Origin: Bacteroidales bacterium
Lineage (GTDB): Bacteria; Bacteroidota; Bacteroidia; Bacteroidales; JAHJDW01
Reading direction: 5' to 3'
NCBI GenBank assembly: GCA_041671145.1
Contig: JBAZBZ010000011.1
Coordinates: 6,255-70,254, forward strand
DNA length: 64,000 nt
Part shown: piece by piece, positions 17,562 to 43,598 of the stretch
Numbering within the stretch: the stretch's first letter is position 1
Layout of the letters: each line of letters begins with the position of its first letter
Translations under genes and position numbers: made by a program
The notes under the pieces: generated by a model
What the model was told of the DNA's origin: nothing
What the model saw: only the letters and a program-made list of their open reading frames with translations
The model's database searches: none

Positions 17562-17579
17562 AACTTTAAACATTAAACT
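17562..17579 (-). repeat. TTTAAAG-type element, partial copy
   Basis: AACTTTAAACATTAAACT, 9 nt after the stop of the giant PKD gene. Confidence 0.6.
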
Positions 17580-17587
17580 ATTTTAAT

Positions 17588-20500
17588 TTACCTTACTAAT
17601 GTTACATTTCCCTTTAATAATTTGGGAGTTGTTGAGCTTATCATTTTTGCCAGAATATAATAACTGTATGTTCCTTCTTCCTGTGGTTTACCTTTATAAG
17701 TGCCGTCCCAACCAGTATTTATATCATTTGTTTCGAATACCATTTCGCCCCATCTGTTGAAAATTCTGAACTCCAGTGATTGAATAACTCCGCTGTATAA
17801 TATTCTGAATTTATCGTTCCGTCCATCTCCATTAGGAGAAAATGCTTCGGGAACTTTTATGAAATCTTCGGAAGAAACATAAATAGTTTTGCGTATTGTA
17901 TCACTGCATCCGGAGCTGTTGAATGTTATAAGTGTAATAGTATATGTTCCGGATGTTTTATAAGTATAAATAGGATTTTTAAGAATCGAAGAATCACCAT
18001 TACCAAAATACCAAAGCCATCTGTTTCCATAAGAAGATATATTTCTGAAAATAATTGCAGGATTTGTCAAAGAAGGATTTATAGGATTGAAAGTAAAATC
18101 GGAAACAGGCCATTTGAATGCATTAATATGAATGATATTATTTTTTGTGCAAATATTATTGGCATATATTACATTCAAATTTACCATATAAGAACCTTGA
18201 TTTATAAAAGTGTGAGTTGTAATATTGCCTGTGCCGTTGTGTCCATCGCCGAAGTTCCACAGCCATGAGTTAACATATACTGATGTGTCGGAATTGTTTC
18301 CCGAAAATGTTAAACTAAAAGGAATACAGCCGGCAGTATCTTCGGGAGACAAAATAATAACGGGAGCTTTGTTAACTTTTATTGTTTTTGTTATGGTTGA
18401 TAAACAACCGATGTCGCTTAATGCGTAAAGAGAAATGTTATATTTACCCTGATTGCTGAATGAGTGAGTGGGTGATACGACAATGCTTGTATTTCCGTCT
18501 CCAAAATTCCATGTATATGAATCGGGAAAAATATGTGTTGTTGTATTTATTAGAGCCATATTTCCAGTGTTGCAAAATACAGTATCGTCAAGATTAAAAC
18601 CGGCAATAATATTTTCGAGATATATTTTTTCTGTTTTCGGAACTATATAAGTGCAACCGAGAGAATCCCGCAATAGTAAACTTGGAGTATATGTTCCGGG
18701 TTTTGAATAGAAATGTATTATGCTGTCTTTATTGCTTGATGAAGAACGATAAACAACGCTGCCATCACCAAAATCCCAAAAATAATCAATGGTGTTTTTG
18801 GTATTTGCAGCAAACAAAACCGTATCGGGGTTGCAAATTGAATCAGGATTGAAAGACAGATTTCCTACGGGTCCGCCTACCTTTACAAATGTGTTTTTTA
18901 TCAATGAGTCGGAACATCCTTCATTATTTGAAACAATTAATTTAACATCGAAATTACCAGAAGTAATAAATAGATGAGCTGCATTTTGCTGGTTTGAAAA
19001 GTTGCCATCGCCAAAATCCCAGTGCCATTGGTTTACATCGGAAGAAGACAAATCGAAAAAGATTACTGCTAATGGTGGACAATCTGTAGAAACAGGATTT
19101 CCGTTGAAGTTTGCAGTTGGCTTTTGTTTCATGAGTATATTACTCATCGTTTTTTTATGACTGCAACCCGATGAATCAGTTACTGTGAGAGAAACAGTAT
19201 ATGTTCCTATTGAGTTGTATTTATGTTTTGGATTTAAAACGCTACTTGTGGTGCCATCACCGAAATTCCATGAGTATGTTAGTTTATAACCCGAAGAAGA
19301 ATTCATAAAGAATAAAGAATCGCCATAGCAAAGGTTACTGTTTTGTATTGAAAAATTTGCTAAAGGTCTAATGTGTATGAGTTGTTTTTTTATAACAGTA
19401 TCTTCACATCCAAAGATATTTTTCACATAAAGTGTTACGGAATAATTACCGGAAATTGAATATGAATGAACAGGATTTTGAACTGTATCGAAAGGACTGC
19501 CATCGCCAAAGTCCCATCGCCATTTGGTTACCGTATAATCGGAAATTGTAGTATCTGTAAAAAAAACCGGAGCTCCGGGACATGCTGTGGTATTGCTGAC
19601 TGTAAATCCTCCTTTTATACCTGCTTTGCTAACGATTTTGATAGTGTCTGTTGATACATAAGTACAGACCAGAGTATCATTTTTTAAATCACCACAACAC
19701 AAATAATAAACGTTTACTTTCAATATGCGTTTTACAATATAAGTTCCGATGTCTTTATAGGTATGAATGGGATTTCTGTATGTGCCTTTAGTTCTCCCGT
19801 TGTGATTGCCATCATGGTTATGTTTGGGATAAATAATTGTATCGGTACCCGTAACTCTGTACGGGAAAATTATTTCGTTAATACCGGGAATATAATCCAA
19901 GAAATCATAATAAATAGAATATTGAACTTTATCATTAACAAGAGTATCACCATCACCAAATTCCCAGTAATATTGTTTTATTTCACCATAGAAACTTATA
20001 GAAGTATCTTTAAAATAAAATGTTATTCCCTGGCAGGTAGTATCTGCAGTGGGGGTAAACCCATTAACAACACTATCAATTACCAGCATATAATCCGGGT
20101 TACAATCGCCGCAGCCGCCAGTTTTTGAAGTGAAGTTTCTTGTTATAATGTTAAAACCATAACGTCCGGCTTTAGTAAAATTAATAAATGTAGTATCCAA
20201 AGGATTTAAGATGGTATTTATTCCCGTTTGTAAATCTGTCATTTTGAAATCAACTGTAGTATCAGCCCCGATGGAGCAGTCGTAAAAACCTAATTTTACG
20301 GGAGGATAGCAGGCAGCCATATCAGTAGTTGAACCTTCAGATGAATCAGGTCTGAGATGACATATTCCCGACCTGGGTTTTACATTCCATATTCTTTTAT
20401 ATATTGTATCATTACAACCGTTAAATCCTGCAACAAAAAAAATAGTATCCAAACCCATTGGTATATGTCCTGTATTGAAAACAGGATTTTGTACTTTAGA

Positions 20501-22336: not shown

Positions 22337-22349
22337 AAAATATTTTTAT

Positions 22350-22357
22350 CAAATATA
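22350..22357 (-). promoter_or_regulatory. Bacteroidota sigma-A -7 box (TATATTTG) for the giant PKD gene
   Basis: Exact TAnnTTTG on the minus strand, 13 nt upstream of the first ATG. Confidence 0.4.
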
Positions 22358-22540
22358 GTAAATTTATTGCTTTTTTTAATCTTGATTTTAAGTAATTATG
22401 ACTCTAAAGTTTATTATACGAAGAAAAGGTATTTTTGTTTGCTTTTACTAACGTGAGTTTGGAATTTTAAAAATGAGAATTAAAAAGATAATTATTTTGT
22501 TTTGGAAGATAAGTTGGTTTATTTTGAGGAGTTAGCCACA

Positions 22541-22672
22541 ACTGTGATAATTCAAAGCTGTATTACCCATTAATTTTAATTTCTCTTTTTAATAAGGCAC
22601 CATAAATATAGTAAAGTTGCCTGAGAAAAATATTTTTTTAACCGGTAGGTTTTTAGCATAGTATTACTAAAA
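22541..22672 (-). pseudogene. relic of the ECF sigma gene 5' end (promoter + leader + ATG joined to codons ~85-94)
   Basis: 22581..22672 matches 26381..26465 with about 6 mismatches. 22543..22570 matches 26098..26126 inside the sigma CDS (MVNTALNYH). The ~240 bp between these blocks is absent. Confidence 0.6.
22593..22621 (-). promoter_or_regulatory. ECF-type promoter-like motif P3 (variant -10) inside the sigma-gene relic, upstream of the giant PKD gene
   Basis: Minus strand reads GGCAAC-N15-GTGCCTTA, one T-to-C change from P1. About 256 nt upstream of the start at 22336. Confidence 0.35.
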
Positions 22673-22695
22673 TTTCAAAGTTTAGTAAAGCTAAT

Positions 22696-22723
22696 AAAAA
22701 AACCCGCAGGAATTTCCTGCAGG
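22696..22723 (-). terminator. intrinsic terminator after the PKD/T9SS type A gene
   Basis: Minus strand reads CCTGCAGGAAATTCCTGCGGG followed by TTTTTTT. 6-bp GC-rich stem plus 2 further pairs. 35 nt after the stop. Confidence 0.65.
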
Positions 22724-22757
22724 TTCTTTGCACTGACAATCGAAACAAGAAGTTTTT

Positions 22758-24017
22758 CTATTTTACAATCATTATTTTTTCTTGAATTGTATTACTTTCC
22801 AAAACAACAGAAAGAGTATAATACCCTGCCGGAAGTGTTGAAACATCAACTATGATATTTTTTGAATTAACTTTTTCATTATATACTTCCCTGCCTGTAA
22901 TATCTGTAATTTTCAGTTCTCCCTGTATTGACTGACTTAACGAAACTTCTATCCTGTTATTAGAAGGATTTGGGAAAACAGAATTCAGAGAAACTGTATT
23001 TTCTCTAATACCTGCTGCTGCATCCACAACTATAAGTTGTTGAATAAAACCTGATTCTCCTCTGTTGGCTTTGGTTGTTTCACATGTAGAACTGCTGCAT
23101 CCATTGGCATCAGTAATGGTTAAGCATATATTATAATGACCGGGAGTAGCATAAGTATGCGATGGATATTGCAGTGTGGAAGTACTTCCATCACCAAAAT
23201 CCCAAAGATAGCTGAATGGAGCAGTGCCTGTTACAGAAGGGTAGGCATACCATAATAATGAATTTGTACCACTACTATCTTGCACTAAATATATGTCTGC
23301 ATTGCAATTATTCTGTCCGTTTCCAATAACAATTGTATTGCAATACGCATCACTGCATACTACATTTTGTTGATTTGAAATTTCAGATACTGTCAGACAA
23401 ACATTAAATGTGCCGGTAGTTGAATAAATATGGCTCGGATTTTGAATATTTGATGTTGTACCATCACCAAAATCCCATACCCAATTATTTATGTTGCTGC
23501 TTGATGATGTACTGTTAAAATAATATGTGTTATTAATATTAACAGAATCCTTATAAGAAATAAATGAAGCAACACAGTTTCCGGTCGGGATGGAATCGTT
23601 TCCATTATCATTGCCAACTATCACATTACTGCAATACGTGTCACTGCATATTATATTTTGCAGATTAGAAATTTCAGATACTGTCAGACAAACATTAAAT
23701 GTGCCGGTAGTTGAATAAATATGGCTCGGATTCTGGATATTTGATGTTGTACCATCACCAAAATCCCATACCCAATTATTTATGTTGCTGCTTGATGATG
23801 TACTGTTAAAATAATATGTGTTATTAACAGAATCTTTTTGATAAATAAATGAAGCAATACAAGCGGAGTCATTTCCATTCGGGATGGAGTCATTTCCGCC
23901 TTTTAGCGTTTTCATGGAGGTTGAATTAAAATCAACCCTGTTGTTTGCGGTATAACCGCTTGCTATAATTCCTGTAAATATCAGGTTTAACAGCAACTTT
24001 AGAATAATCTTTTTCAT
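22758..24017 (-). CDS. PKD-domain protein with T9SS type A sorting domain
   Basis: Three WDFGDG PKD units, two of them near-identical. C-terminal FPNPSNNRIEV...GYYTLSV CTD. Signal peptide present. Confidence 0.8.
   Translation of the reverse strand: MKKIILKLLLNLIFTGIIASGYTANNRVDFNSTSMKTLKGGNDSIPNGNDSACIASFIYQKDSVNNTYYFNSTSSSSNINNWVWDFGDGTTSNIQNPSHIYSTTGTFNVCLTVSEISNLQNIICSDTYCSNVIVGNDNGNDSIPTGNCVASFISYKDSVNINNTYYFNSTSSSSNINNWVWDFGDGTTSNIQNPSHIYSTTGTFNVCLTVSEISNQQNVVCSDAYCNTIVIGNGQNNCNADIYLVQDSSGTNSLLWYAYPSVTGTAPFSYLWDFGDGSTSTLQYPSHTYATPGHYNICLTITDANGCSSSTCETTKANRGESGFIQQLIVVDAAAGIRENTVSLNSVFPNPSNNRIEVSLSQSIQGELKITDITGREVYNEKVNSKNIIVDVSTLPAGYYTLSVVLESNTIQEKIMIVK
23377..23827 (-). repeat. tandem in-frame duplication of a PKD module inside the type A CTD gene
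   Basis: 23377..23536 and 23668..23827 differ at 2 of 160 nt (offset 291 nt). The full unit is about 291-297 bp and spans about 23334-23900. Confidence 0.9.
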
Positions 24018-24059
24018 TTTTTTAAGTTTTTAGTGATTAATGATTTTTAATTTCATCAA

Positions 24060-24087
24060 TAAGACACTAACTTTTAAAAAGGTTGCC
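24060..24087 (-). promoter_or_regulatory. ECF-type promoter-like motif P2 upstream of the PKD/T9SS type A gene
   Basis: Minus strand reads GGCAAC-N14-GTGTCTTA. Shares the plus-strand 14-mer GTTGCCTGAGAAAA and 10-mer AATAAGACAC with P1. 42 nt upstream of the ATG at 24017. Confidence 0.45.
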
Positions 24088-24110
24088 TGAGAAAATAAAA
24101 AAAGAATTTA

Positions 24111-25775: not shown

Positions 25776-26371
25776 TTTACTATAATATTAGTTAAATGAT
25801 TTTTATTTTCAAATTTAAAGTACTCATTTACTTTTTTCTTTAAATAATTTCTTGCTTTAAATAATTGCGATTTTGATGTGCTTTCGGTTATTCCAAGCAT
25901 TTCGGCAATTTCCTTGTGTCCGTATTCTTCAAAAACATAAAGGTTAAATACGGCTCTGTAACCTTCGGGTAAACTCTGAATTATTTCGAGCAACTCTTTT
26001 TCACTTAGTATTGCTTCTTCGTAATTTTCTTCTTCCACTTCTAATTTGTCTTCAATTTCATCAATATCCTTATGGAAGAAATGCTTAAGATTATCCCTGT
26101 GATAATTCAAAGCTGTATTAACCATTATTTTCTTCATCCATCCTTCGAAAGAACCTTCAAACTTGTAATCTTTTATTTTTAAAAATATTTTCACAAAACC
26201 CTCCTGTGCAATATCTTCGGCTTCATCTTTATTTCTCGAATATCTCATGCAAATAACCAGCATAGTTGGTGCATACCTGTCGAAAAGCATGGTTTCAAAA
26301 CTACGCTTTCCAGCCATACATCCCTCAATTAAAACCTTATCGTCTAACTGTATTCTTTCTGAAATACTCAT
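25772..26371 (-). CDS. RNA polymerase ECF-type sigma-70 family factor
   Basis: Region 2 (DEAEDIAQEGFVKIF, W.KKIMVNTALNYHR) and region 4 (LPEGYRAVFNLYVFEEYGHKEIAEMLGITESTSKSQL). Confidence 0.85.
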   Translation of the reverse strand: MSISERIQLDDKVLIEGCMAGKRSFETMLFDRYAPTMLVICMRYSRNKDEAEDIAQEGFVKIFLKIKDYKFEGSFEGWMKKIMVNTALNYHRDNLKHFFHKDIDEIEDKLEVEEENYEEAILSEKELLEIIQSLPEGYRAVFNLYVFEEYGHKEIAEMLGITESTSKSQLFKARNYLKKKVNEYFKFENKNHLTNIIVK

Positions 26372-26393
26372 TAACTTATATTTCTCTTTTTAA

Positions 26394-26422
26394 TAAGACA
26401 CCATAAATATAGTAAAGTTGCC
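26394..26422 (-). promoter_or_regulatory. ECF-type promoter-like motif P1 upstream of the sigma/anti-sigma operon
   Basis: Minus strand reads GGCAAC-N15-GTGTCTTA, ending 22 nt before the sigma ATG. No TAnnTTTG box nearby. Confidence 0.5.
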
Positions 26423-26473
26423 TGAGAAAAATATTTTTTTAACTGGTAGTGTTTTAGTATGAGACAACCTCTG

Positions 26474-27922: not shown

Positions 27923-28058
27923 GCGGATTTATCCTTATTAATTCATCAACTTTTTTATTTTTAGATACGAGCTGCAAGCTTCGAGCCAAGAGAAAGAAAG
28001 AAAATAACAACAAATAAAGAATCTTTTAATTTTTTAATCTTTCAATCTTTTATTTTTT

Positions 28059-28721
28059 TTAAATATTTAAGTAATTCATAAAAGAATCATATCTTTCTTT
28101 TAAATCATCATAAAAATTATCTTCACCGAAAGATGCTTTTATAACATAATCGTATCGCGTAAATGTCTTTAAAATGGGAGTTATATCGGTTCTGTTAACT
28201 TTAAGAGTAACATCAATTTTTGTAGAATCGGGATGTGCTGTTACGAACATATTCAGAATTTTTGCATCATTGGATTCCACAATCTGCGAAATCTGTGCAA
28301 GTGTATAGTCGTTGCTGTTTAACTCAAGGATTATTATTCCACCGGGATTTTGAATTGCAGTGAATTCGGCGAATTTTATTAAAAGAGTTTTTAAAGTTAT
28401 TGCTCCCAGATAATTATTTTTATCGTCGAGCACCGGAATTAATGATAATTGTAGGAACGACATTAATTTTAAAACATCAAGTATATGCTGACTTCTCAAT
28501 ACATAAGGTTTGGTTAATGAAAGTGAATGATTTCCGAGTGGTTCATCTGGCTCGTTGATATCCAGAATATCATTTTCGGAAATCAATCCGAGAAACTGTT
28601 CATTATTAACAATAGGAAGATGTGTAACTTTATATTCCTCCATCATAGTTAATGCTTTGTTGGCATTATCCGATGTTTTCAGTGAAGGGATTGAATATGA
28701 TATTAATTCTTCTGCAATCAT
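28059..28721 (-). CDS. CBS domain pair protein
   Basis: Two CBS-like units (VTHLPIVNNEQFLGLISENDIL and LIPVLDDKNNYLGAITLKTLL). Confidence 0.7.
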   Translation of the reverse strand: MIAEELISYSIPSLKTSDNANKALTMMEEYKVTHLPIVNNEQFLGLISENDILDINEPDEPLGNHSLSLTKPYVLRSQHILDVLKLMSFLQLSLIPVLDDKNNYLGAITLKTLLIKFAEFTAIQNPGGIIILELNSNDYTLAQISQIVESNDAKILNMFVTAHPDSTKIDVTLKVNRTDITPILKTFTRYDYVIKASFGEDNFYDDLKERYDSFMNYLNI

Positions 28722-28752: not shown

Positions 28753-28787
28753 GCTGCAAGCCAAGAGCTACGAGCTACAAGCCAGAT
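28753..28787. repeat. heptamer array (GCYRMRA)x5
   Basis: gctgcaa gccaaga gctacga gctacaa gccagat. A related array, gctgcaa gcttcga gccaaga, lies at 27971..27991. Confidence 0.8.
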
Positions 28788-28886
28788 ATTTTAATCTTTT
28801 AATCTTTATTTTTTTTATCTTTTTAAATAATATATTACACAAACATACATTTTTTTTTAGTTTTGTAATTAATTTTATTAAAAAAG

Positions 28887-29609
28887 ATGACAAAGTTAAG
28901 TATCAACATAAATAAAATAGCAACACTCCGAAATGCAAGAGGAGGAAATCTGCCAGATGTTATTAAGGTTGCTATTGACTGCGAAAGATTCGGTGCCGAT
29001 GGAATTACCGTTCACCCGCGTCCCGATGAGAGGCACATTAAATATAAAGATGTTTATGATTTGAAAGATGTGTTAAAAACCGAATTCAATATTGAAGGAT
29101 ATCCATCAGAAAAATTCATAAAGCTTGTTTGCAATGTTAAACCTGCTCAGGTTACTTTAGTTCCCGACCCTCCCGATGCCATCACTTCAAACGCAGGATG
29201 GAATACAAAATTGAATAAAAAATTTCTATCAGATATTATTGAGAAATTTAAAAATGAAAATATAAGAGTTTCAATATTCATTGACCCTATTGTGGAAATG
29301 CTCGAAAATGCTGTGGAAACCGGTACCGACAGAATTGAATTATATACCGAAGCTTTTGCAAAAGATTTTTATTCCAATAGGGAAAAAGCAATAAAGCCAT
29401 ATATAGAAGCTGCAAAATATGCCAACGAACTCGGATTCGGAATTAACGCAGGACATGATTTGAATATCGACAATCTGAATTATTTCGCAAAAAATATCCC
29501 ATCTCTCCTCGAAGTTTCCATAGGTCATGCTTTAATCTCCGATGCTATTTATTTTGGATTGGAAAATACAATTAAAATGTATTTGAATAGTTTAAAGTTT
29601 AAGGTCTAA
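28887..29609 (+). CDS. pdxJ: pyridoxine 5'-phosphate synthase
   Basis: [32 protein letters not shown] and GHDLN motifs. The last 6 codons and the stop lie inside a 32-nt repeat. Confidence 0.9.
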
Positions 29610-29620
29610 AGTTTAAAGTT
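29589..29620 (+). repeat. 32-nt TTTAAAG-type element, copy A
   Basis: AGTTTAAAGTTTAAGGTCTAAAGTTTAAAGTT. Contains the pdxJ stop codon. Confidence 0.9.
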
Positions 29621-29756
29621 TTGCGAAATTTCGCATTTGTCAATATTTCTTGGCAGTTTGCAGTTGAATATTTTTTTAAGTTTCTCGCAGAGCCGCAAAG
29701 TTTTTCTTTGTTTGACTTTTGACCCGTTAGGCAATTGTTAATGTTGAATGACCAAT

Positions 29757-29788
29757 AACTTTAAACTTTAGACCTCAAACTTTAAACT
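29757..29788 (-). repeat. 32-nt TTTAAAG-type element, copy A' (inverted)
   Basis: 31/32 match to the reverse complement of copy A. 5 nt past the C25 peptidase stop. Confidence 0.9.
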
Positions 29789-32522: not shown

Positions 32523-32544
32523 TTTATTTGAGAATTAAAAAAAA

Positions 32545-34429: not shown

Positions 34430-34521
34430 GTTTTATGTTTTTTTAATTATTTTTTATTTAATTTTTCTTTATTTGACATCCATGTTTTAAACTTTGTGAA
34501 CTTTGCAAAAACCTTTGTGTT

Positions 34522-34553
34522 CTTTGTAGTTTTACAAAAAGACAACTACAAAG
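34522..34553. repeat. CTTTGTRGTT / AACYACAAAG hairpin with flanking CAAAG word repeats
   Basis: 10-bp perfect stem CTTTGTAGTT...AACTACAAAG with a 12-nt loop. Arms extend imperfectly over about 34478-34585. Confidence 0.7.
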
Positions 34554-36695: not shown

Positions 36696-37208
36696 TTATT
36701 TTACTTTGTGTTTAAACTTCACTTTAGAAAGTTCATCATTTGCTTTAATAATCTTTATTTTTAAATTTTCCTTATAATCAATAATCTTATTTAAAATTTC
36801 TTTATTTCCTGTTGCAAGAATCTGAGCGGCAAGAATACCTGCATTTGCAGCACCATTCAAAGCTACCGTAGCAACCGGAATTCCGGCGGGCATTTGCAGA
36901 ATCGAAAGAATGGAATCCCATCCATCAATGGAATTAGATGATTTAATGGGTACGCCAATAACCGGAATTGGAGTGCTGGCTGCAATGACACCCGGCAGAT
37001 GAGCTGCTCCGCCTGCTCCAGCAATTATGACTTTCACGCCTCTTGAATATGCTTTTTTTGCAAACTCCATAACTTTGTCGGGAGTTCTGTGTGCTGAAAG
37101 TGCATTGATTTCAAAAGGAATTCCAAATTCATCGAGAACTTTGGCAGCTTCTTCCATAACAGGCAAATCGGAAGTGCTTCCCATAATAATACTAACTTTT
37201 GGTTCCAT
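36696..37208 (-). CDS. purE: 5-(carboxyamino)imidazole ribonucleotide mutase
   Basis: VSIIMGSTSDLPVM, SAHRTP, AGGAAHLPGV and GVPI motifs. Confidence 0.95.
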   Translation of the reverse strand: MEPKVSIIMGSTSDLPVMEEAAKVLDEFGIPFEINALSAHRTPDKVMEFAKKAYSRGVKVIIAGAGGAAHLPGVIAASTPIPVIGVPIKSSNSIDGWDSILSILQMPAGIPVATVALNGAANAGILAAQILATGNKEILNKIIDYKENLKIKIIKANDELSKVKFKHKVK

Positions 37209-37439
37209 ATTTTAAATTTTATGCAAACGTAATTGTTTTTTTAATAATTATCAATTCGTATTCAAATAAAAATTTAATTTCTTTTACTGAATTTATATTT
37301 ATATTAGCGGAAATAATTGTTGCTGATTAAGCATTTATATTTCGTGAAATGCTCATAACTAAAAAGTTTGTGAACTGTTGTTTTTATTTTTAACGCTAAA
37401 ACAGAAATTAATCATTAATAACTAAAAAAAATCAAAACC

Positions 37440-38015
37440 ATGCTAAATATTGTATTATTCGGACCTCCGGGTTCAGGAAAAGGAACGCAATCTGAAAAAC
37501 TAATTGAGAAATACAACCTTGTTCATTTATCAACAGGTGATATTTTGAGAGCTGAAGTTAAAGGAGGAACCACACTCGGTTTAAAAGTAAAAGGAATAAT
37601 GGAACGCGGAGAACTTGTTTCAGATGAATTAATAATTGAAATTCTTCTCGACAGAGTTTCTAAAAATCAAAATGCAAAAGGTTTTATTTTCGATGGTTTC
37701 CCGCGAACAATAATGCAGGCAGAAAAACTCGACCAGAATTTAAACAATAATAATTCTCCTGTTTCAATAACTGTTGCACTCGATGTTCCCGAAGACATAC
37801 TTATGAAACGATTGCTTCACAGAGCACAACAAACTGGCAGAACCGATGATACAGAAGAAGTAATTAAAAACAGAATTGAAGTTTATAAAAAACAAACATT
37901 TCCTTTGCTTGATTATTACAAGAAACAAAATAAACTTTCATTGATTCATGGCGTGGGTAGTATCGATGATATTTTTGTAAACGTTGCTAAAGTGATTGAT
38001 TCGTTGAAAAAATAA
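37440..38015 (+). CDS. adk: adenylate kinase
   Basis: GPPGSGKGTQ P-loop, LSTGDILR and FDGFPRT. Confidence 0.95.
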   Translation: MLNIVLFGPPGSGKGTQSEKLIEKYNLVHLSTGDILRAEVKGGTTLGLKVKGIMERGELVSDELIIEILLDRVSKNQNAKGFIFDGFPRTIMQAEKLDQNLNNNNSPVSITVALDVPEDILMKRLLHRAQQTGRTDDTEEVIKNRIEVYKKQTFPLLDYYKKQNKLSLIHGVGSIDDIFVNVAKVIDSLKK

Positions 38016-38019
38016 ATAG

Positions 38020-38052
38020 AGTTTTAAAGTTTAATGTCTAAAGTTTAAAATT
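38020..38052 (+). repeat. TTTAAAG-type element, copy B
   Basis: AGTTTTAAAGTTTAATGTCTAAAGTTTAAAATT. Starts 5 nt after the adk stop. Confidence 0.8.
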
Positions 38053-38191
38053 TTTTACTTTTAAACTAATGGCTAATAACTTAAAAGATTTTATAATAAA
38101 AAAATATCGAATTTCGAACATTGAGGAATTGCTGATAAATAAACTTTACATTAAAAATAAAGGTAGTGTTAACCAAATACAGTTCTTTGCC

Positions 38192-38222
38192 CTTTGTGGT
38201 TATCTTTTTTTTAACCACAAAG
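38192..38222. repeat. CTTTGTGGTTA / TAACCACAAAG hairpin
   Basis: 11-bp perfect stem with a T-rich 9-nt loop. Right flank reads ACACAAAGTTCACAAAG. Confidence 0.7.
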
Positions 38223-38354
38223 AACACTAAGGTTTACACAAAGTTCACAAAGTTTAATTTTGCACATGCGGGATATTACCATACCAAATTAATTGTAAAT
38301 ATTATTTTTTAACAAGCCATGAATATTAATTTTAAAGATTTTATAATAAAAAAA

Positions 38355-38389
38355 TATCGAACATCGAATAATGAATATCGAATTTCGAA
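38355..38389. repeat. heptamer array (NNTCGAA)x5
   Basis: tatcgaa catcgaa taatgaa tatcgaa tttcgaa. Confidence 0.85.
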
Positions 38390-38442
38390 GTTTTTCTTAC
38401 TAATGACCAATTAATAGTAGCTTCAAACCCTGAATTACGAAC

Positions 38443-38474
38443 AACTTTAAACTTTAAACATTAAACTTTAAACT
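38443..38474 (-). repeat. TTTAAAG-type element, copy B' (inverted)
   Basis: AACTTTAAACTTTAAACATTAAACTTTAAACT, 30/32 match to the reverse complement of copy A. Ends 8 nt before the obg ATG. Confidence 0.85.
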
Positions 38475-38481
38475 ACCTAAA

Positions 38482-39474
38482 ATGTCCGAATCTAATTTTA
38501 TTGATTACGTAAAAATTTTTTGTAAATCGGGAAAAGGCGGAGGTGGTTCCGTTCATTTGCGCCATGAAAAATCAAAACCGAGAGGCGGTCCCGATGGCGG
38601 AAATGGCGGCAGAGGCGGGCATGTTATTATTAAAGGCAATAAACAATTGTGGACACTTCTTCATTTAAAATACACAAAACATATTACCGCAAAAGACGGA
38701 GGAAAGGGGAGCCATAATTTATGTACAGGCGCTGATGGAAATGATGCCATTATTGAAGTTCCTCTTGGCACAATAATTAAAAACTTCGAAACAAATGAAA
38801 CGGAACTTGAAATTACTGAAGACGGCGAAACAAAAATTTTTATGTCGGGTGGGAGAGGAGGCATGGGAAATCATTATTTCAGAACAGCAACTCATCAAAC
38901 TCCAAGATTTGCACAGCCGGGAGAAAAAGGAACTGAAGGATGGAAAATATTTGAATTAAAATTATTGGCTGACGTTGGTCTGGTTGGATTTCCTAATGCA
39001 GGGAAATCAACATTGCTGTCTGTATTGTCAGCAGCAAAACCTGAAATTGCCGATTATCCTTTTACTACACTTGTTCCTAATTTGGGAGTGGTTGCCTACC
39101 GTGAACACAGGTCATTTGTAATGGCTGATATTCCAGGTATCATAGAGGGGGCAAGCGAAGGGAAAGGACTTGGGTTGCGATTCCTTCGACACATCGAAAG
39201 AAATTCTCTGCTTTTATTTATTGTTCCTGCAAATTCGGAAAATATAAAAAAAGAATATGAGGTTTTGTTGAATGAATTAAAAACTTATAATCCCGAACTT
39301 CTTGATAAGAAGAGAATACTTGCAATTTCAAAATCGGATTTGATAAATGAAAATGAAATGAAAAAAATTAAAAAAAATATTCCGAAAATTCCATTTGTTT
39401 TTATTTCTTCGCATACTGGTTTTGGACTCATGGAATTAAAAGATGTTTTGTGGAAAGAATTGAACAATGAATAA
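38482..39474 (+). CDS. obg: GTPase Obg/CgtA
   Basis: [18 protein letters not shown] Obg fold. G1 [10 protein letters not shown]3 DIPGIIEGA. Confidence 0.95.
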
Positions 39475-39523
39475 TTAACAAATAATAATTAATAATTTGT
39501 TGTCAGTTGTTTTATTTTTCTCT

Positions 39524-39568
39524 GCGTCTCTGCGAGAAACCAAAAAAAATATTTAACCGCAAAGACGC
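39524..39568. repeat. GCGTCTCTGCG / CGCAAAGACGC hairpin
   Basis: 10/11-bp stem with a 23-nt A-rich loop. The reverse complement of the same 11-mer, CGCAGAGACGC, also occurs at 670..680. Confidence 0.6.
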
Positions 39569-39615
39569 CAAGTCGCCAAGTTGCTTGGCAATTGAGCAAT
39601 TCAACAATGTTTTTA

Positions 39616-39650
39616 CTAATGACTAATGTCTTATGACTGATGACTAATTT
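39616..39650. repeat. heptamer array (CTAATGA-like)x5
   Basis: ctaatga ctaatgt cttatga ctgatga ctaattt. Overlaps the PAP2 start codon. Confidence 0.8.
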
Positions 39651-40215
39651 CATCGAAATATTAAACAGCATTGATACCAGAATAACATTATTCCTGAATC
39701 AATTTCACAACAGTTTTTTTGACTTTGTTATGTATTGGATTAGCGACAAATTCATTTGGATTCCGTTGTATTTATTCTTATTGTATCTTGTTATTAAAAC
39801 TGAAAAAAAGAAAACATATCTTGTTTTATTTTTTATTTTAGTTCTAATAATTATAAGCGACCAAACTTCTTGTTTTATTAAAGACATGGTAAAACGAACA
39901 CGTCCTTGCCACGATGATGGTATTATTTTAAAAATTCATATTGTAAAAAATTATTGTGGAGGCGAATATGGTTTTGTTTCATCGCATGCTTCAAATATTT
40001 TTGCAATTTCAATATTCATAATAAAACTTTTGAAACAAAATTTTAAATGGCTTGCTCCTTCTTTAATTATATGGGCAAGCATAGTTTCATTCAGCAGAAT
40101 TTATCTTGGTGTACATTATTTAGGCGATGTTATTTGTGGTGCGGTTTTCGGAGCTTGTGTGGCTTTGATGGTTTTTAAAATTTATACTATTGTGAAAAAT
40201 AAAATTTTTAATTAG
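39640..40215 (+). CDS. PAP2 family phosphatase
   Basis: KDMVKRTRP, SSHAS and SRIYLGVHYLGD tripartite PAP2 motif. Multiple TM segments. Confidence 0.8.
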   Translation: MTNFIEILNSIDTRITLFLNQFHNSFFDFVMYWISDKFIWIPLYLFLLYLVIKTEKKKTYLVLFFILVLIIISDQTSCFIKDMVKRTRPCHDDGIILKIHIVKNYCGGEYGFVSSHASNIFAISIFIIKLLKQNFKWLAPSLIIWASIVSFSRIYLGVHYLGDVICGAVFGACVALMVFKIYTIVKNKIFN

Positions 40216-40322
40216 TTTAATATATTCTGAAGCTCTTCGCATTATAAATTATATTTTTACACAAAAAAAGATTAAAAAAAGAAAACAATCAATAAAATCA
40301 AAAACCTTAAAACTAAAAAATC

Positions 40323-41159
40323 ATGAACAGAGCATTATTAGTAGGGATTAACAAATATCCAGGTGCACCGCTAAGCGGATGCGTAAACGACATCACCGAC
40401 ATGGCAAATTTTCTTGTAAAAAATTGCAAATTCAAAATGCAAGAGATTCGATTGCTTACCGATTCGCGTGCAACTGCAAAAGAAATTTTAGCTCGTTTGA
40501 AGTGGCTTATAACTGGAGTAAAGAAAGGCGACAGAATTTTATTTCATTACAGCGGACACGGTGCACAGGTTGTCACAAGAGATAAAAAAGGTGAAGTTGA
40601 CGGGAAAGACGAAGTTATTTGTCCCGTTGATTTTGACTGGACCGATAAACATATGATTAGAGACAAAGATTTTGCAAAGTTGTTTTCTGCGGTTCCTAAA
40701 GGAGTTGAATTTGTCTGGATTTCCGATTCATGTCACTCTGGAGACATGAGCAAATATTTTCCAAAAACAAAACAAACAGCCAAAACAATGATGCCTCCTG
40801 CTGATATAGAATGGCGATTGCAAACTTTTAATAATCAAACAAAAATACAACCAAATAGTTTACCAAAGGAAGCAAGTAAACTTAATGTTGCTTTAATTTC
40901 CGGATGTCAGTCAAATCAGACTTCTGCCGATGCAACATTTAACAACAGACCAAATGGTGCATTAACTTATTTTTTATTGAAAGAACTTCAAAAACCGAAT
41001 GGTTTATCAGAATCACTTGTTACTGTTGTAAAAAATATTAACAAAGCTTTGGATGCAAATGATTTTAAACAAAATCCGCATCTTGAAGGAAGCAAGGAAA
41101 TTGAGAAAAAAGGATTTTTGGATTCAAGCAAGGTGAAAGAATTTTATTTGGTTAATTAA
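40323..41159 (+). CDS. caspase-family (C14, metacaspase-like) protease, single domain
   Basis: ALLVGINKY, catalytic His in FHYSGHG and catalytic Cys in SDSCHSG. No signal peptide and no extra domains. Confidence 0.8.
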   Translation: MNRALLVGINKYPGAPLSGCVNDITDMANFLVKNCKFKMQEIRLLTDSRATAKEILARLKWLITGVKKGDRILFHYSGHGAQVVTRDKKGEVDGKDEVICPVDFDWTDKHMIRDKDFAKLFSAVPKGVEFVWISDSCHSGDMSKYFPKTKQTAKTMMPPADIEWRLQTFNNQTKIQPNSLPKEASKLNVALISGCQSNQTSADATFNNRPNGALTYFLLKELQKPNGLSESLVTVVKNINKALDANDFKQNPHLEGSKEIEKKGFLDSSKVKEFYLVN

Positions 41160-41205
41160 AATAACTTTTTTTTCTTTGTGCCCCTTAGTGCTATCTTTTG
41201 TGCGA

Positions 41206-41234
41206 CTTTGTGGTTGATTTTTTTTACCACAAAG
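41206..41234. repeat. CTTTGTGGT / ACCACAAAG hairpin
   Basis: 9-bp perfect stem with a T-rich 11-nt loop. Imperfect arms over about 41170-41275 carry repeated CACAAAG words. Confidence 0.7.
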
Positions 41235-41343
41235 GCACACAAAGGTTTTCGCAAAGTACCACAAAGGGCTTTTAAGATAATTTTATTGTTTTATACTAAA
41301 CACACGATAAATTTGTATATTTTGAAATCACTATATCAAAAAA

Positions 41344-42186
41344 ATGAAAGGTAAAATTGTTTTAATAACGGGAGCCACATCAGGTATTGGCGAGGCAACA
41401 GCAATGGCTCTGGCGAAAATGCAGGCGACATTGGTTTTGGTTGCACGCGATAAAAATAAAGCAATAGAAACTGTTGAAGAAATAAAATCGGAAAGTAAAA
41501 ACCCGAATGTTGAATACCTGCTCTGCGATTTATCTTCTCTTTCTTCAGTTCGGCAACTCGCTGCGGAATTCAAAAATAAATACAATCGTCTCGATGTTTT
41601 AATCAATAATGCAGGGCTTATTTTAAGCAAAAGAGAAACTACTATAGATGGTTTTGAAAAAACACTTGCTGTTTGTCATCTTGCACATTTCCTGCTCACA
41701 AATTTATTACTTGATACAATAAAATCAAGCAAGCCGTCACGGATTATCAATGTTTCCTCAGTTGCTCACCTTATGGGACATATTGATTTTGATGATTTAA
41801 TGTTTGAAAAAAAATACAGTTCAGCAAAATCTTATGGACAAGCAAAACTCGCAAATGTATTATTTACAAAAAAACTTGCCGAAAAACTTGAAGGCACCGA
41901 AGTAACAGTAAATTCGGTTCATCCAGGAGGGGTTAATACAAAATTCGACAGAGATTTAAAAGGATTTTATAAATTCGCGTGGAGTTCATTTAAGCCATTT
42001 TTATTAACTCCCGAAAAAGGTGCAGAAACTTCAATTTACCTTGCATCTTCTCCTGAAGTTGACGGCGTGTCGGGTGAATATTTTGCTAAGAAAAAAATAA
42101 AGAGAACATCAAAAGAATCATACGACTCCGAAATTGCGGACAAACTCTGGAAAGTAAGTGAAAAATTTGCGGGACTTGTTGCATAG
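41344..42186 (+). CDS. SDR family oxidoreductase
   Basis: TGATSGIG cofactor motif, NNAG and YGQAK active-site motif. Confidence 0.85.
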   Translation: MKGKIVLITGATSGIGEATAMALAKMQATLVLVARDKNKAIETVEEIKSESKNPNVEYLLCDLSSLSSVRQLAAEFKNKYNRLDVLINNAGLILSKRETTIDGFEKTLAVCHLAHFLLTNLLLDTIKSSKPSRIINVSSVAHLMGHIDFDDLMFEKKYSSAKSYGQAKLANVLFTKKLAEKLEGTEVTVNSVHPGGVNTKFDRDLKGFYKFAWSSFKPFLLTPEKGAETSIYLASSPEVDGVSGEYFAKKKIKRTSKESYDSEIADKLWKVSEKFAGLVA

Positions 42187-42257
42187 ATATTTAAATATAA
42201 AAATGACTAATTGTTATACTACAAATGGTTAAAAATTCAGCAATTTGACAATTCTTG

Positions 42258-42283
42258 AAACTTTAGTCCTTAAACTTTAAACT
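42258..42283 (-). repeat. TTTAAAG-type element, copy C (inverted, 26 nt)
   Basis: AAACTTTAGTCCTTAAACTTTAAACT, 25/26 match to the reverse complement of copy A. Overlaps the stop of the PduO-type gene. Confidence 0.85.
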
Positions 42284-42794
42284 CTTTTCTGGCAAGAACA
42301 AAAAGATAATCGGAAAGGCGATTTAGATATTTTAATATAAATTCATCAACTTTTTCTTTTTCGGAAAGATTAATGGTAATACGCTCTGCTCTGCGGCATA
42401 CTGTGCGTGCAATATGACAATGTGAAGATATTTGGTTCCCTCCGGGAATTACAAATTCTTTGAGTGCAGGTAATTTTTTTTCTATTTTATCAATTTCTTT
42501 TTCAAGAAAATTCAAGTCATTTTCTTTTAAAAAATTAATATTTGGTTTTTTTATTTTTTTTGATTTATCATAACCGACAGCAAGTGCTGACTGGATAGCG
42601 AAAAGATTTTTTTGAATTACAAATAAATTATTTTTTGAAATTTTATCAATTTTCTGAGAGCAAATTAAACCGAGCCACGAATTGAGTTCGTCAACACTTC
42701 CTAAAGCATCAATTCTATGATGACATTTGGAAACACGCAATCCCCCAATTAATGAGGTTTTTCCTTTGTCTCCGGTTTTTGTGTATATTTTCAT
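42270..42794 (-). CDS. PduO-type ATP:cob(I)alamin adenosyltransferase
   Basis: MKIYTKTGDKGKTSLIGG..V.K N-terminus and helical bundle. The last codons (EFKV) and the stop lie inside a 32-nt repeat copy. Confidence 0.85.
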   Translation of the reverse strand: MKIYTKTGDKGKTSLIGGLRVSKCHHRIDALGSVDELNSWLGLICSQKIDKISKNNLFVIQKNLFAIQSALAVGYDKSKKIKKPNINFLKENDLNFLEKEIDKIEKKLPALKEFVIPGGNQISSHCHIARTVCRRAERITINLSEKEKVDEFILKYLNRLSDYLFVLARKEFKV

Positions 42795-42811
42795 TTTCCG
42801 TTTATTATTTA

Positions 42812-43555
42812 TTAGTCGTTGCTTTCAACTGCTAACTTCAGTTTTTCATTTTCAAAAGTTCTTATATCGTTATTTTTTTCATCACTGATAATCATGCCGT
42901 CGTTTAGTTTGATTATGCGGTGGGCATATTTAGCAATATCTGGCTCATGAGTAACAACAATGATTGTGTTTCCGCTTTTATGAATTTCTTCAAAAAGTCC
43001 CATTATTTCCACTGAAGTTTTTGAATCGAGATTACCTGTTGGTTCATCGGCAAGCATTATAGCAGGTGAATTTACCAGAGCCCTTGCAATTGCAACCCTT
43101 TGTCGCTGTCCGCCTGAAAGCTCATTCGGTTTATGTTTAATCCTGTCGGTAAGCCCCACGTTATTCATGACTATACTTGCTCTTTCAATTCTTTTATTTT
43201 TATTAAGCCCTGCATAAACAAGTGGCAGCATAACATTTTCAAGAGCAGAAGAACGGGGCAATAGATTAAACGTTTGGAAAACAAAGCCCACTTGCTTGTT
43301 TCTTACTTCAGCAAGTTCGTTGTCGCTCATTTTGCTCACATTAATTTCGTTTAAAAAATATTCACCTGAAGTAGGTGTATCAAGGCATCCGAGAATATTC
43401 ATAAGTGTTGATTTTCCTGAACCAGACGGACCCATTAATGCAACGTATTCATTTTTATAAATAGCGAGATTTATCAAACGCAACGCCCTGATGATTTCAG
43501 TTCCGACTTTGTAATTTTTTACAAGATTTTTTAAAACTATCAATTCTTCTGCCAT
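42812..43555 (-). CDS. ABC transporter ATP-binding protein (MacB/LolD-like)
   Basis: Walker [10 protein letters not shown], signature [15 protein letters not shown] and Walker B MLADEPT. Confidence 0.9.
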
Positions 43556-43566
43556 TACTTTTAAAA

Positions 43567-43598
43567 AGTTTAAAGTTTAAGGTCTAAAGTTTAAAGTT
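43567..43598 (+). repeat. 32-nt TTTAAAG-type element, copy D
   Basis: 32/32 identical to copy A. 12 nt upstream of the minus-strand ABC ATPase start. Continues into five more heptamers up to 43631. Confidence 0.9.

What the first reader, a model, noticed from the sequence alone, without database searches (positions are those of the whole stretch)
17562..43598. A 32-nt (TTTAAAG)4-type element in 6-7 copies, oriented consistently relative to gene ends
AGTTTAAAGTTTAAGGTCTAAAGTTTAAAGTT occurs at 29589 (+) and 43567 (+), and these two copies are identical. Copies with 1-3 differences lie at 29757 (-), 38020 (+), 38443 (-) and 42258 (-), with a partial copy at 17562 (-). Every copy sits within 12 nt of a gene end or overlaps one. 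At all five 3' ends (pdxJ, C25 peptidase, adk, PduO-type gene, giant PKD gene) the sense strand reads the AGTTTAAAG form. Just upstream of two start codons (obg, ABC ATPase) the sense strand reads the complement. Two genes, pdxJ (...LKFKV*) and the PduO-type gene (...EFKV*), take their last codons and stop codon from the element. I do not recognise this element as described. The orientation rule suggests a function in the transcript or in defining transcription units, rather than random insertion.
Basis: seen in the sequence. Interest (0 to 1): 0.7.

Follow-up and report, generated by a model that had tools for sequence, protein, structure and literature searches.

The report
Oriented heptamer repeat arrays at gene ends
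The 32-base element is real and sits next to gene ends in a fixed orientation, but it belongs to an already described and still unexplained class of seven-base tandem repeats, seen here in an AT-rich form in Bacteroidota.

Summary
Six full copies and one partial copy of a 32-nt sequence lie at the stated places, where none is expected by chance. Each abuts or overlaps a gene end.

The element is 4.5 tandem units of the heptamer AGTTTAA. Its third unit is diverged in every copy, so the copies are related as whole units.

Stops lie at the 5' end of the G-bearing strand 66 times against 15, and starts 49 against 17. Close inverted pairs always face inward (20 against 0).

This geometry was published in 2015 for G-rich heptamer repeats of Xanthomonas and Nostoc, where it was attributed to G-quadruplexes. 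It includes about four units, the G strand pointing away from the nearest ORF, and convergent pairs. TAACTGA heptamers near start codons were also described in Beggiatoaceae and some Bacteroidetes.

The arrays here cannot form quadruplexes, so the geometry does not depend on them. Function is unproven. My best reading is a dispersed non-coding module at transcript margins whose orientation is filtered at the RNA level. The main rival is a REPIN- or MITE-like selfish repeat.

It is a new member of a known kind, of moderate interest.

The parts
29589..29620 (+). Array copy 1, G-form (AGTTTAA x4.5, third unit GGTCTAA). It supplies the last 6 codons and the stop of pdxJ, and is the left arm of an inward inverted pair.
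   Evidence: Exact match; TRF period 7, 4.7 copies; translation ...NSLKFKV*.
29757..29788 (-). Array copy 2, G-form on the - strand, 4 nt after the stop of the C25 peptidase gene. It is the right arm of the pair and lies 136 nt from copy 1.
   Evidence: 1 mismatch; inverted repeats I4/I12; the two arms close a stem with MFE -68.7 kcal/mol, z -8.5.
38020..38052 (+). Array copy 3, G-form, 4 nt after the adk stop. It is the left arm of the second inward pair.
   Evidence: the third unit is TGTCTAA, and the G-to-T change is shared with its partner.
38443..38474 (-). Array copy 4, G-form on the - strand, so the obg sense strand reads AACTTTAAAC. It ends 7 nt before the obg ATG and is the right arm of the second pair, 390 nt from copy 3.
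   Evidence: 2 mismatches; I15; closing stem in the fold of 38005-38495, MFE -84.6 kcal/mol, z -3.8.
42255..42286 (-). Array copy 5, G-form on the - strand. It supplies the last codons and the stop of the PduO-type adenosyltransferase gene. No inverted partner lies nearby.
   Evidence: translation ...ARKEFKV*.
43567..43598 (+). Array copy 6, identical to copy 1. The sense (-) strand of the ABC ATPase gene reads the C-form 11 nt upstream of its ATG. Together with copy 5 it brackets the two-gene unit 43555->42270 as a 34-nt, 91% complementary outward pair.
   Evidence: Exact match; I13.
17559..17580 (-). Partial copy of 2.5-3 units (TAGTTTAATGTTTAAAGTTAAG), about 8 nt after the stop of the giant PKD/T9SS gene.
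43599..43632 (+). Adjacent heptamer array of another unit type (CGAACAA/CCACAAA). On the sense (-) strand it is G/U-rich and pairs with copy 6 through G-U wobbles.
   Evidence: TRF; fold of 43660->43556: -23.8 kcal/mol, z -3.25.

Best explanation
What it is (shown). The 32-nt element is a short tandem array of 4.5 heptanucleotide units, AGTTTAA, whose third unit is diverged in every copy. It does not form a protein-coding gene of its own. In two copies its first units supply the last 4-6 codons and the stop of the adjacent gene. It is one family, amplified in this lineage, of the class of intergenic heptanucleotide repeats already known from cyanobacteria (STRR), Xanthomonas and Nostoc (GGGAATC, GGGGAYT) and Beggiatoaceae and some Bacteroidetes (TAACTGA).

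Geometry (shown). It follows the geometry of that class. It has about four to five units. It sits hard against an ORF end. The G-bearing strand runs 5'->3' away from that ORF, whether the end is a stop or a start. When two arrays share a spacer they face each other.

How it works (inferred). The 32-mer spreads or is homogenised as a whole unit. It is kept only in the orientation that puts a G-free, unstructured RNA (AACUUUAAAC...) in front of start codons and a G/U/A RNA (AGUUUAAAG...) behind stop codons. Paired arrays form the outer arms of a long stem that brackets the intergenic spacer, and in some genomes that spacer contains a terminator hairpin. On this reading it is a generic module of the transcript margin, a leader or trailer and stem arm, not a gene-specific regulator.
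For: Repeat structure. Period 7, 4.3-4.9 copies at all six sites; 0 matches expected by chance.

Copies related as whole units. The third unit is the variant one in all six copies: GGTCTAA three times, then GGACTAA, TGTCTAA and TGTTTAA.

Orientation. In 176 arrays (170 from loci of other genomes, 6 from the window), stops adjoin the 5' end of the G-form 66 times against 15 at the 3' end (p=9e-9). Starts adjoin it 49 against 17 (p=1e-4). Solo arrays obey the rule too, 40:14 and 32:15.

Pairs. Close inverted pairs are inward 20:0 (p=2e-6). Their spacers are often strong hairpins.

Location. Only 1 of 176 arrays lies inside an ORF.

Controls. G is depleted at -20..-1 of ATGs in Bacteroidota generally, G/(G+C)=0.41. 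This fits the start-side orientation. General intergenic hairpins show no G-first bias, 189:181, so the polarity is specific to the arrays.

Class features. Period-7 arrays of at least 3.5 copies number 64, against 13 for period 6 and 14 for period 8, in 1.3 Mb of unselected Bacteroidota DNA. Their lengths have a second mode at 30-39 nt that other periods lack.

Prior description. The same geometry is published for G-rich heptamers (PMC4692102) and in part for TAACTGA (PMC4679880).
Against: No transcript data were available, so the RNA-level step is inference.

The background composition after stops is unskewed (0.48-0.51). There is therefore no general selective pressure on record that would favour the G-form there.

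Only 7 of 66 stop-adjacent arrays are followed by a strict terminator within 120 nt.

In 13 loci the array abuts a promoter -7 box rather than a start codon. Some C-form copies may therefore not be transcribed from the adjacent promoter.

G-strand RNA folds better than C-strand RNA on both sides of the arrays, so folding energies gave no specific signal.

Positions are not conserved between distant species. That argues against any gene-specific role, and it is equally compatible with a selfish or neutral repeat.
Confidence: 0.5

Rival explanations
1. A selfish small mobile repeat in the manner of REPINs or MITEs. The inward-facing inverted pair would be the unit that is inserted. Solo arrays would be decayed halves. 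The orientation relative to genes would simply follow from a palindromic element being dropped into a very short spacer, so that its outer ends touch the flanking genes.
For: Two identical copies lie 14 kb apart and all copies share the variant third unit.

Inward pairs outnumber outward pairs 20:0.

adk and obg are adjacent in 59 of 80 Bacteroidota loci, with spacers of 3-25 nt in 13 of them. Here the spacer is 466 nt, and the arrays sit 4 nt and 7 nt from its two edges. That is what insertion of a block of about 455 nt into an 11-nt spacer would give.

Other modules inside the spacers recur elsewhere in the window (I2, I5).

An independent assembly of the same organism breaks exactly at two copies.

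In other lineages the array is copied together with fixed flanks (L089, L047/L117, and L005/L026/L038).
Against: There are no target-site duplications at either pair.

The interiors of the two pairs are unrelated and differ in length, 136 against 390 nt.

Spacing in other genomes ranges from 18 to 431 nt.

A single array is not a hairpin: -3.8 and -1.1 kcal/mol.

There is no transposase, RAYT, reverse transcriptase or integrase among 50 window ORFs, although 64 kb is a small sample.

At least eight other heptamer unit types in this window alone share the same placement. That is hard to reconcile with sequence-specific transposition.

Solo arrays still obey the rule.
Confidence: 0.25
2. A functionless microsatellite. 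Replication slippage favours 7-nt units, and arrays arise anywhere that is unconstrained. Purifying selection then removes those that put G in front of start codons or otherwise disturb expression.
For: An excess of heptanucleotide repeats is general in bacteria and has been ascribed to polymerase slippage (Mrazek 2007, as cited in PMC4679880 and PMC4692102). Units are very diverse in unselected Bacteroidota DNA. Arrays are not conserved at orthologous sites in distant species. G depletion before ATGs can account for the start-side bias.
Against: Independent slippage would not give the same diverged third unit in six copies.

Array ends are sharp, with no in-phase decayed units in either flank.

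Lengths show a mode at 30-39 nt instead of a monotonic decline, and no window array exceeds 5.3 units.

The stop-side bias of 66:15 has no counterpart in the background composition.
Confidence: 0.12
3. A double-stranded DNA site. TTTAAA hexamers every 7 bp put three units on two helical turns. This could be bound by a nucleoid or architectural protein, or could act as an AT-rich upstream element of promoters.
For: The unit is a palindromic hexamer plus one base. In 13 loci, against 3, the array lies 4-9 nt upstream of a Bacteroidetes -7 box (TAnnTTTG) that fires away from it.
Against: On duplex DNA the two orientations differ only by one G/C pair per unit, yet orientation is strongly constrained. 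About half of the placed arrays follow stop codons, including between convergent genes where no promoter is expected. The same geometry is seen with unrelated GC-rich units in other phyla (PMC4692102).
Confidence: 0.08
4. A translational device. TTTAAAG and TTTAAAC are X XXY YYZ slippery heptamers, and the array carries stop codons in all six frames. It might therefore programme frameshifting or act as an all-frame stop barrier.
For: The sequence itself: there is a TAA in each unit on both strands, and 7 is not a multiple of 3. Two genes end inside the array.
Against: Five of seven copies lie wholly outside ORFs. No overlapping -1 frame ORF follows, since all frames close within three units. 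The GC-rich members of the class (GGGAATC) carry no stop codons on either strand, yet show the same geometry.
Confidence: 0.03

Closest known systems
G-rich heptameric intergenic repeats of Xanthomonas (GGGAATC) and Nostoc (GGGGAYT, the STRR1 type), Rehm et al. 2015, PMC4692102
   Same: The unit is 7 nt. There is a clear preference for about four units. The repeats are almost all intergenic. They lie much closer to the ORF on the 5' side of the G-rich strand than to the other ORF, whatever that ORF's orientation. They are on the coding strand after stops, often overlapping the stop, and on the non-coding strand before starts. There are many convergent inverted pairs. They are rare between divergent ORFs. 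They are spread over housekeeping genes. No function was found.
   Different: The unit here is AT-rich with a single G, so it cannot form a G-quadruplex, which was the rationale offered for the four-unit preference and the strand rule. The host phylum is different. In this genome the copies are near-identical 32-mers with a fixed variant unit, rather than arrays of variable length.
TAACTGA heptamer direct repeats of marine Beggiatoaceae, cyanobacteria and five Bacteroidetes, MacGregor 2015, PMC4679880
   Same: These are heptamer direct repeats of 2-6 units. They are intergenic and lie within a few nt upstream of start codons in one fixed orientation. One set in Flexibacter litoralis sits just after a stop in the reverse orientation. 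Other heptamer repeats were noted in the same Bacteroidetes spacers. Each unit contains TAA.
   Different: The unit is different. The stop-codon side and the inverted pairs were not analysed there. That paper proposed horizontal transfer and binding by S1, Csp or CsrA. No phylum-wide orientation statistics were given.
REP elements, BIMEs and REPINs of Proteobacteria
   Same: These are elements of about 30-35 nt, dispersed in many copies. They are extragenic, lie at 3' ends of genes or between co-transcribed genes, and are rare between divergent genes. They are often arranged as inverted doublets that form long hairpins in RNA.
   Different: Each REP is itself an imperfect palindrome with a conserved 5' tetranucleotide and is tied to a RAYT transposase. 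The array here has no hairpin of its own, is built of tandem 7-mers, has variable pair spacing, and also sits directly in front of start codons.
MITEs such as Correia elements of Neisseria, and small dispersed repeats (SDR) of Nostoc (Elhai et al. 2008, from my own knowledge)
   Same: Short non-coding repeats bounded by inverted ends lie in intergenic DNA close to genes. SDRs are 21-27 nt and are often embedded in heptamer arrays.
   Different: Here there are no target-site duplications, no conserved interior and no fixed size. The inverted ends are themselves tandem repeats.

Membership tests
Intergenic heptanucleotide repeat class (STRR / long SSR; geometry of PMC4692102) | Head-to-tail tandem copies of a 7-nt unit | tested here: met
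   TRF gives period 7 and 4.3-4.9 copies at all six sites.
Intergenic heptanucleotide repeat class (STRR / long SSR; geometry of PMC4692102) | Non-coding location | tested here: met
   1 of 176 arrays lies inside an ORF. 87 of 91 period-7 arrays of any unit are non-coding.
Intergenic heptanucleotide repeat class (STRR / long SSR; geometry of PMC4692102) | Preference for about four units | tested here: met
   Window copies have 4.3-4.9 units. In 2.24 Mb of unselected DNA plus the window, period-7 arrays show a length mode at 30-39 nt that periods 5, 6, 8, 9 and 10 lack.
Intergenic heptanucleotide repeat class (STRR / long SSR; geometry of PMC4692102) | The 5' end of the G-richer strand lies next to the nearest ORF, whatever that ORF's orientation | tested here: met
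   Stops 66:15 and starts 49:17. All seven window copies conform.
Intergenic heptanucleotide repeat class (STRR / long SSR; geometry of PMC4692102) | Convergent inverted pairs | tested here: met
   Within 600 nt there are 20 inward and 0 outward pairs. Two such pairs are in the window.
Intergenic heptanucleotide repeat class (STRR / long SSR; geometry of PMC4692102) | Under-represented between divergent ORFs | tested here: inconclusive
   14 of 127 spacers (11%) are divergent, against 84 of 504 (17%) in the baseline. Convergent spacers are 19% against 14%. The trend is in the expected direction only.
Intergenic heptanucleotide repeat class (STRR / long SSR; geometry of PMC4692102) | Able to form a G-quadruplex (runs of at least 3 G in each unit) | tested here: not met
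   There is one G per unit (sequence). The element is therefore not a member of the G4-forming subclass, although it shares that subclass's geometry.
Intergenic heptanucleotide repeat class (STRR / long SSR; geometry of PMC4692102) | Transcribed | not testable with these tools
   No RNA data exist for this organism.
REP / REPIN with RAYT | Each repeat is an imperfect palindrome forming its own hairpin | tested here: not met
   MFE is -3.8 kcal/mol for the G-form and -1.1 kcal/mol for the C-form.
REP / REPIN with RAYT | Inverted doublets with a family-specific fixed spacing | tested here: not met
   The arrangement is fixed (inward), but spacing is 136 and 390 nt in the window and 18-431 nt elsewhere.
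REP / REPIN with RAYT | A RAYT (IS200/IS605-type Y1 transposase) gene in the genome | not testable with these tools
   None is found among 50 ORFs of the 64-kb window. The rest of the genome is not available.
MITE | Terminal inverted repeats | tested here: met
   The two pairs are 97% and 91% complementary over 32-33 nt (I12, I15).
MITE | Target-site duplication flanking the ends | tested here: not met
   The flanks are ...tttgaat / ctcttca... and ...aaatag / acctaaa..., with no direct repeat.
MITE | Conserved interior and size among copies | tested here: not met
   The interiors of 136 and 390 nt are unrelated, apart from modules that also occur elsewhere.
Intrinsic terminator | GC-rich stem-loop followed by a U tract | tested here: not met
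   No terminator-like site lies in or next to any window copy. Only 7 of 66 stop-adjacent arrays elsewhere are followed by one.
Any Rfam RNA family | Match at the gathering score | tested here: not met
   There are 0 matches in the whole window.
-1 programmed frameshift site | X XXY YYZ heptamer inside an ORF with an open -1 frame downstream | tested here: not met
   The heptamer pattern is present, but all frames close within three units and five of seven copies lie outside ORFs.

The most novel reading that the evidence does not exclude
Heptanucleotide arrays may be a cross-phylum class of gene-boundary elements. Their geometry is about 4-5 units, with the G-bearing strand pointing away from the ORF and facing pairs bracketing the spacer, and it would be independent of unit sequence and of G-quadruplex formation. 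That would point to one unrecognised common mechanism. One possibility is a polar process that generates or moves such arrays until they meet a constrained sequence. Another is a general RNA-level distinction between transcripts entering and leaving a gene: a G-free leader bound by ribosomes or S1, against a G/U/A trailer bound by RRM- or Csp-type proteins or avoided by Rho. The AT-rich Bacteroidota arrays would be the case that separates this mechanism from the quadruplex explanation.
Probability: 0.25. Interest if true: 0.8.

Novelty: new member of a known kind. Interest (0 to 1): 0.5.

Why it matters
Heptamer repeats next to genes have been known since 1990 in cyanobacteria, and later in Xanthomonas and Beggiatoaceae, without an accepted function. 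The one detailed study of their geometry explained the four-unit preference and the strand rule by G-quadruplex formation.

The arrays here cannot form quadruplexes, yet they show the same unit number, the same strand rule and the same facing pairs in many Bacteroidota. This removes the quadruplex explanation for the geometry and makes the question more general.

It also provides cultivable test organisms that carry the arrays. These include Flavobacterium selenitireducens, Chryseobacterium profundimaris and Chitinophaga ginsengisoli.

On the practical side, these arrays break short-read assemblies, and they supply the last codons and stop codons of real genes. Both points matter for annotation.

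Tried and rejected
Rfam. The whole window at the gathering score gave no hit.

Promoter and terminator scans around the copies were not above shuffles, and nothing lay at the copies.

Orthologous comparison in close relatives was not possible. The best relatives are only 72% (Obg) and 76% (aminotransferase) identical, in genome and metagenome collections respectively. An exact-protein look-up found one 5-kb contig of the same organism.

Growth at one end of the array. I looked for in-phase decayed units in the flanks. Both flanks were at chance level.

A general rule that the G-rich arm comes first in intergenic hairpins is rejected, 189:181.

Strand-specific RNA folding around arrays gave no specific signal. 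The G-strand RNA folds better on both sides, as expected from G-U pairing.

Phage carriage is rare. Only 12 loci were found in 2.9 million viral contigs.

A mobilising enzyme in the window was not found.

RbpB CLIP data for B. thetaiotaomicron mention no heptamer motif. RbpB does bind a G/U/A repeat and not a C/U one in vitro. This is a lead only.

An early orientation count was diluted because the unit is nearly palindromic and arrays were scored on both strands. This was corrected.

The observation that the variant unit lies centrally in other genomes cannot be used, because my search pattern fixed the variable positions there.
Full report
**Observation**

The 32-mer AGTTTAAAGTTTAAGGTCTAAAGTTTAAAGTT occurs exactly at 29589 (+) and 43567 (+). 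It occurs with one mismatch at 29757 (-) and two at 38443 (-). Dinucleotide-preserving shuffles gave no match.

A search allowing indels adds 38020-38052 (+) and 42255-42286 (-). A partial copy lies at about 17559-17580 (-).

Every copy is within 11 nt of a gene end or overlaps one. PdxJ ends ...[10 protein letters not shown] and the PduO-type protein ends ...ARKEFKV*, with those last residues and the stop read from the element.

Two small corrections apply. The 42255 copy differs at four positions over 32 nt. The gene at 43650-44495 (-) ends 51 nt from the 43567 copy and reads the complement form there, so the rule concerns the nearest gene end only.

**Anatomy**

Tandem Repeats Finder reports every copy as period 7, 4.3-4.9 copies, unit AGTTTAA.

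The unit is the palindromic hexamer TTTAAA plus one G. The two strands therefore differ only by G against C at every seventh position. I call them the G-form and the C-form.

The third unit is the diverged one in all six copies: GGTCTAA three times, then GGACTAA, TGTCTAA and TGTTTAA. Within the 38020/38443 pair both arms share the G-to-T change. Independent slippage would not produce this, so in this genome the 32-mer behaves as a discrete unit.

A single array has almost no structure of its own, -3.8 and -1.1 kcal/mol. The copies 29589/29757 and 38020/38443 are inward-facing inverted pairs. They close long stems around spacers of 136 and 390 nt. Copies 43567 and 42255 bracket the two-gene unit 43555->42270 (I13).

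The cumulative GC skew rises steadily across the window. The G-form is on the + strand three times and on the - strand four times, so the copies show no preference for either DNA strand.

**Context in the window**

The window is 32% GC and encodes T9SS components and housekeeping genes. There is no transposase, RAYT, reverse transcriptase or integrase among 50 ORFs.

Its intergenic DNA is full of other short arrays of 3.7-5.3 heptamer units next to gene ends. The units include AATTAAT, GCATAGG, AATATCG, ACTAATG, CGAACAA, TAAATCC and ACTTACG. It also holds other modules that recur in different spacers (I2, I5, D6, D7).

An independent Logan assembly of the same organism yields a 5-kb contig whose two ends fall at copies 38443 and 43567. 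This is as expected for a dispersed repeat.

**Distribution**

The 120 loci returned are almost all Bacteroidota of many orders.

In 2.24 Mb of Bacteroidota DNA fetched for unrelated reasons (Obg and aminotransferase loci) there are only six AGTTTAA-type arrays, against six in this 64-kb window. The unit is widespread but strongly amplified in this lineage, by about 35-fold.

The organism has no close relative in the collections, with best identities of 72% and 76%. Viral contigs rarely carry the array.

**Orientation test**

Strand was assigned by best score, which is needed because the unit is nearly palindromic. ORF ends were detected symmetrically on both sides.

- In 176 arrays, a stop codon adjoins the 5' end of the G-form 66 times and the 3' end 15 times (p=9e-9).
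- A start codon adjoins the 5' end 49 times and the 3' end 17 times (p=1e-4).
- Without the window's own copies the counts are 63:15 and 47:17.
- Solo arrays obey the rule (40:14 and 32:15), and paired ones obey it more strictly (26:1 and 17:2).
- Inverted pairs within 600 nt are inward 20 times and outward never.
- At gene-sized distances the outward arrangement prevails (5 against 2), as the rule predicts.
- Pairs lie between convergent or aligned genes and never between two starts.
- In 13 loci, against 3, the 5' end of the G-form lies 4-9 nt from a Bacteroidetes -7 box firing away from it.

**Controls**

Background composition shows G depletion just upstream of ATGs, G/(G+C)=0.41. It shows none after stops, 0.48-0.51. 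General composition can therefore explain the start side but not the stop side.

Ordinary intergenic hairpins show no G-first polarity, 189:181.

Array ends are sharp on both sides.

**The wider class**

In unselected Bacteroidota DNA, period-7 arrays of at least 3.5 copies outnumber those of periods 6, 8 and 9 by about five to one. 87 of 91 are non-coding.

Their lengths have a second mode at 30-39 nt. Lengths for other periods fall monotonically.

Across all unit types the strand reading away from the adjacent ORF tends to have G>C: 32:14 at stops and 18:9 at starts.

At the conserved adk-obg junction the spacer is 3-25 nt in 13 species but 466 nt here. Other species carry other 7- or 8-mer arrays in the same inward arrangement in that spacer.

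**What is already known**

Rehm et al. 2015 (PMC4692102) described GGGAATC repeats in Xanthomonas and GGGGAYT repeats in Nostoc. Their findings match what is seen here:

- They are almost exclusively closer to the 5' neighbouring ORF, irrespective of its orientation.
- They lie on the coding strand within 50 bp after stops, including overlapping the stop, and on the non-coding strand within 50 bp before starts.
- There are 70-75 convergent inverted pairs per genome.
- They are rare between divergent ORFs and mostly transcribed.
- No function was found.

They read the four-unit preference as the requirement for a G-quadruplex.

MacGregor 2015 (PMC4679880) described TAACTGA repeats just upstream of start codons in Beggiatoaceae, cyanobacteria and five Bacteroidetes. 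One set followed a stop in reverse orientation. That paper also noted other heptamer repeats in Bacteroidetes spacers.

No paper in the library contains the AGTTTAA array sequence in this context.

The element is therefore a new member of a known kind. Its added value is that it shows the geometry without any quadruplex potential.

**Mechanism**

Shown: it is a discrete, dispersed heptamer array that is not a gene of its own, placed against ORF ends with a fixed polarity and forming stem arms when paired.

Inferred, at about 0.5: it is a generic module of transcript margins whose orientation is filtered at the RNA level. That means a G-free leader before starts, a G/U/A trailer after stops, and arms of a bracketing stem when paired.

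The main rival, at about 0.25, is a REPIN- or MITE-like selfish repeat. The shared variant unit, the exclusive inward pairs and the enlarged adk-obg spacer speak for it. The lack of target duplications, the unrelated interiors and the many unit types with the same geometry speak against it.

Pure slippage, a duplex DNA site and a frameshift or stop device are less likely, for the reasons given under the rivals.

A speculative lead: the window encodes an RRM-1 protein (12575-12928). B. thetaiotaomicron RbpB binds a G/U/A repeat but not a C/U one in vitro.

**Verdict**

Novelty is limited to a new member of a known kind, and interest is moderate.

Noticed in passing
window 5871-5898, 17503-17532, 38353-38389, 39466-39497, 39615-39648, 43599-43632, 44503-44528, 50505-50535: Eight further heptamer arrays of other units (AATTAAT, GCATAGG, AATATCG, AATTAAT, ACTAATG, CGAACAA, TAAATCC, ACTTACG). 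Each has 3.7-5.3 units and most lie directly next to a gene start or stop. They seem to belong to the same class as the finding.
   Followed up: partly
window 34487-34539 vs 38205-38257; 29657-29700 vs 39520-39563; 28013-28101 vs 28786-28857: Other 40-90-nt modules built of words such as CACAAAG, CGCAAAG, CTCTGCG and AATCTTTT recur in different intergenic spacers, in either orientation. The spacers look like mosaics drawn from a small repertoire of repeats.
   Followed up: no
window 22558-22659 vs 26359-26460: A 102-nt direct repeat (89% identical) lies in the upstream regions of two - strand genes, the giant PKD/T9SS gene and an ECF-type sigma factor gene. It may be a shared promoter or leader.
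   Followed up: no
window 38016-38481, compared with L122-L201: adk lies directly upstream of obg in 59 of 80 Bacteroidota loci, and the spacer is 3-25 nt in 13 species. Here the spacer is 466 nt. It also contains an 84-nt internal direct repeat (38041-38124 and 38291-38374) and a CACAAAG-type hairpin.
   Followed up: partly
window 12575-12928 (+): A small single-domain RRM_1 RNA-binding protein of 117 aa, of the RbpA/B/C type of Bacteroides. Published in-vitro data show that RbpB binds G/U/A repeats but not C/U repeats. This is a possible, untested binder of the G-form RNA.
   Followed up: partly
L121 (Logan SRR18595301 contig), equivalent to window 38446-43596: An independent short-read assembly of the same organism yields a 5151-bp contig whose two ends fall inside array copies 38443 and 43567. 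The arrays break assemblies.
   Followed up: yes
L089 2529-2660; L047 4099-4274; L117 2842-2975 and 4058-4196; L005, L026, L038 (one MAG): In other lineages the array is copied together with fixed neighbouring sequence. There is a 49-nt tandem unit (array plus gggcaaagccacg). There are long perfect palindromes (array plus gtcgttcggcttg...) around a terminator-like hairpin. There is also a composite of about 70 nt present at least four times in one Bacteroidales MAG.
   Followed up: partly
window 23336-23536 vs 23627-23827; 13439-14208: A 201-nt tandem duplication (95% identical) lies inside the PKD/T9SS gene 22758-24017. Seven 120-123-nt repeats lie inside the BNR/Ycf48-like T9SS protein gene. 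These are coding domain repeats, unrelated to the finding.
   Followed up: no
window 3578-3907 (+): A ParE-family toxin gene, presumably part of a toxin-antitoxin pair, lies among housekeeping genes.
   Followed up: no
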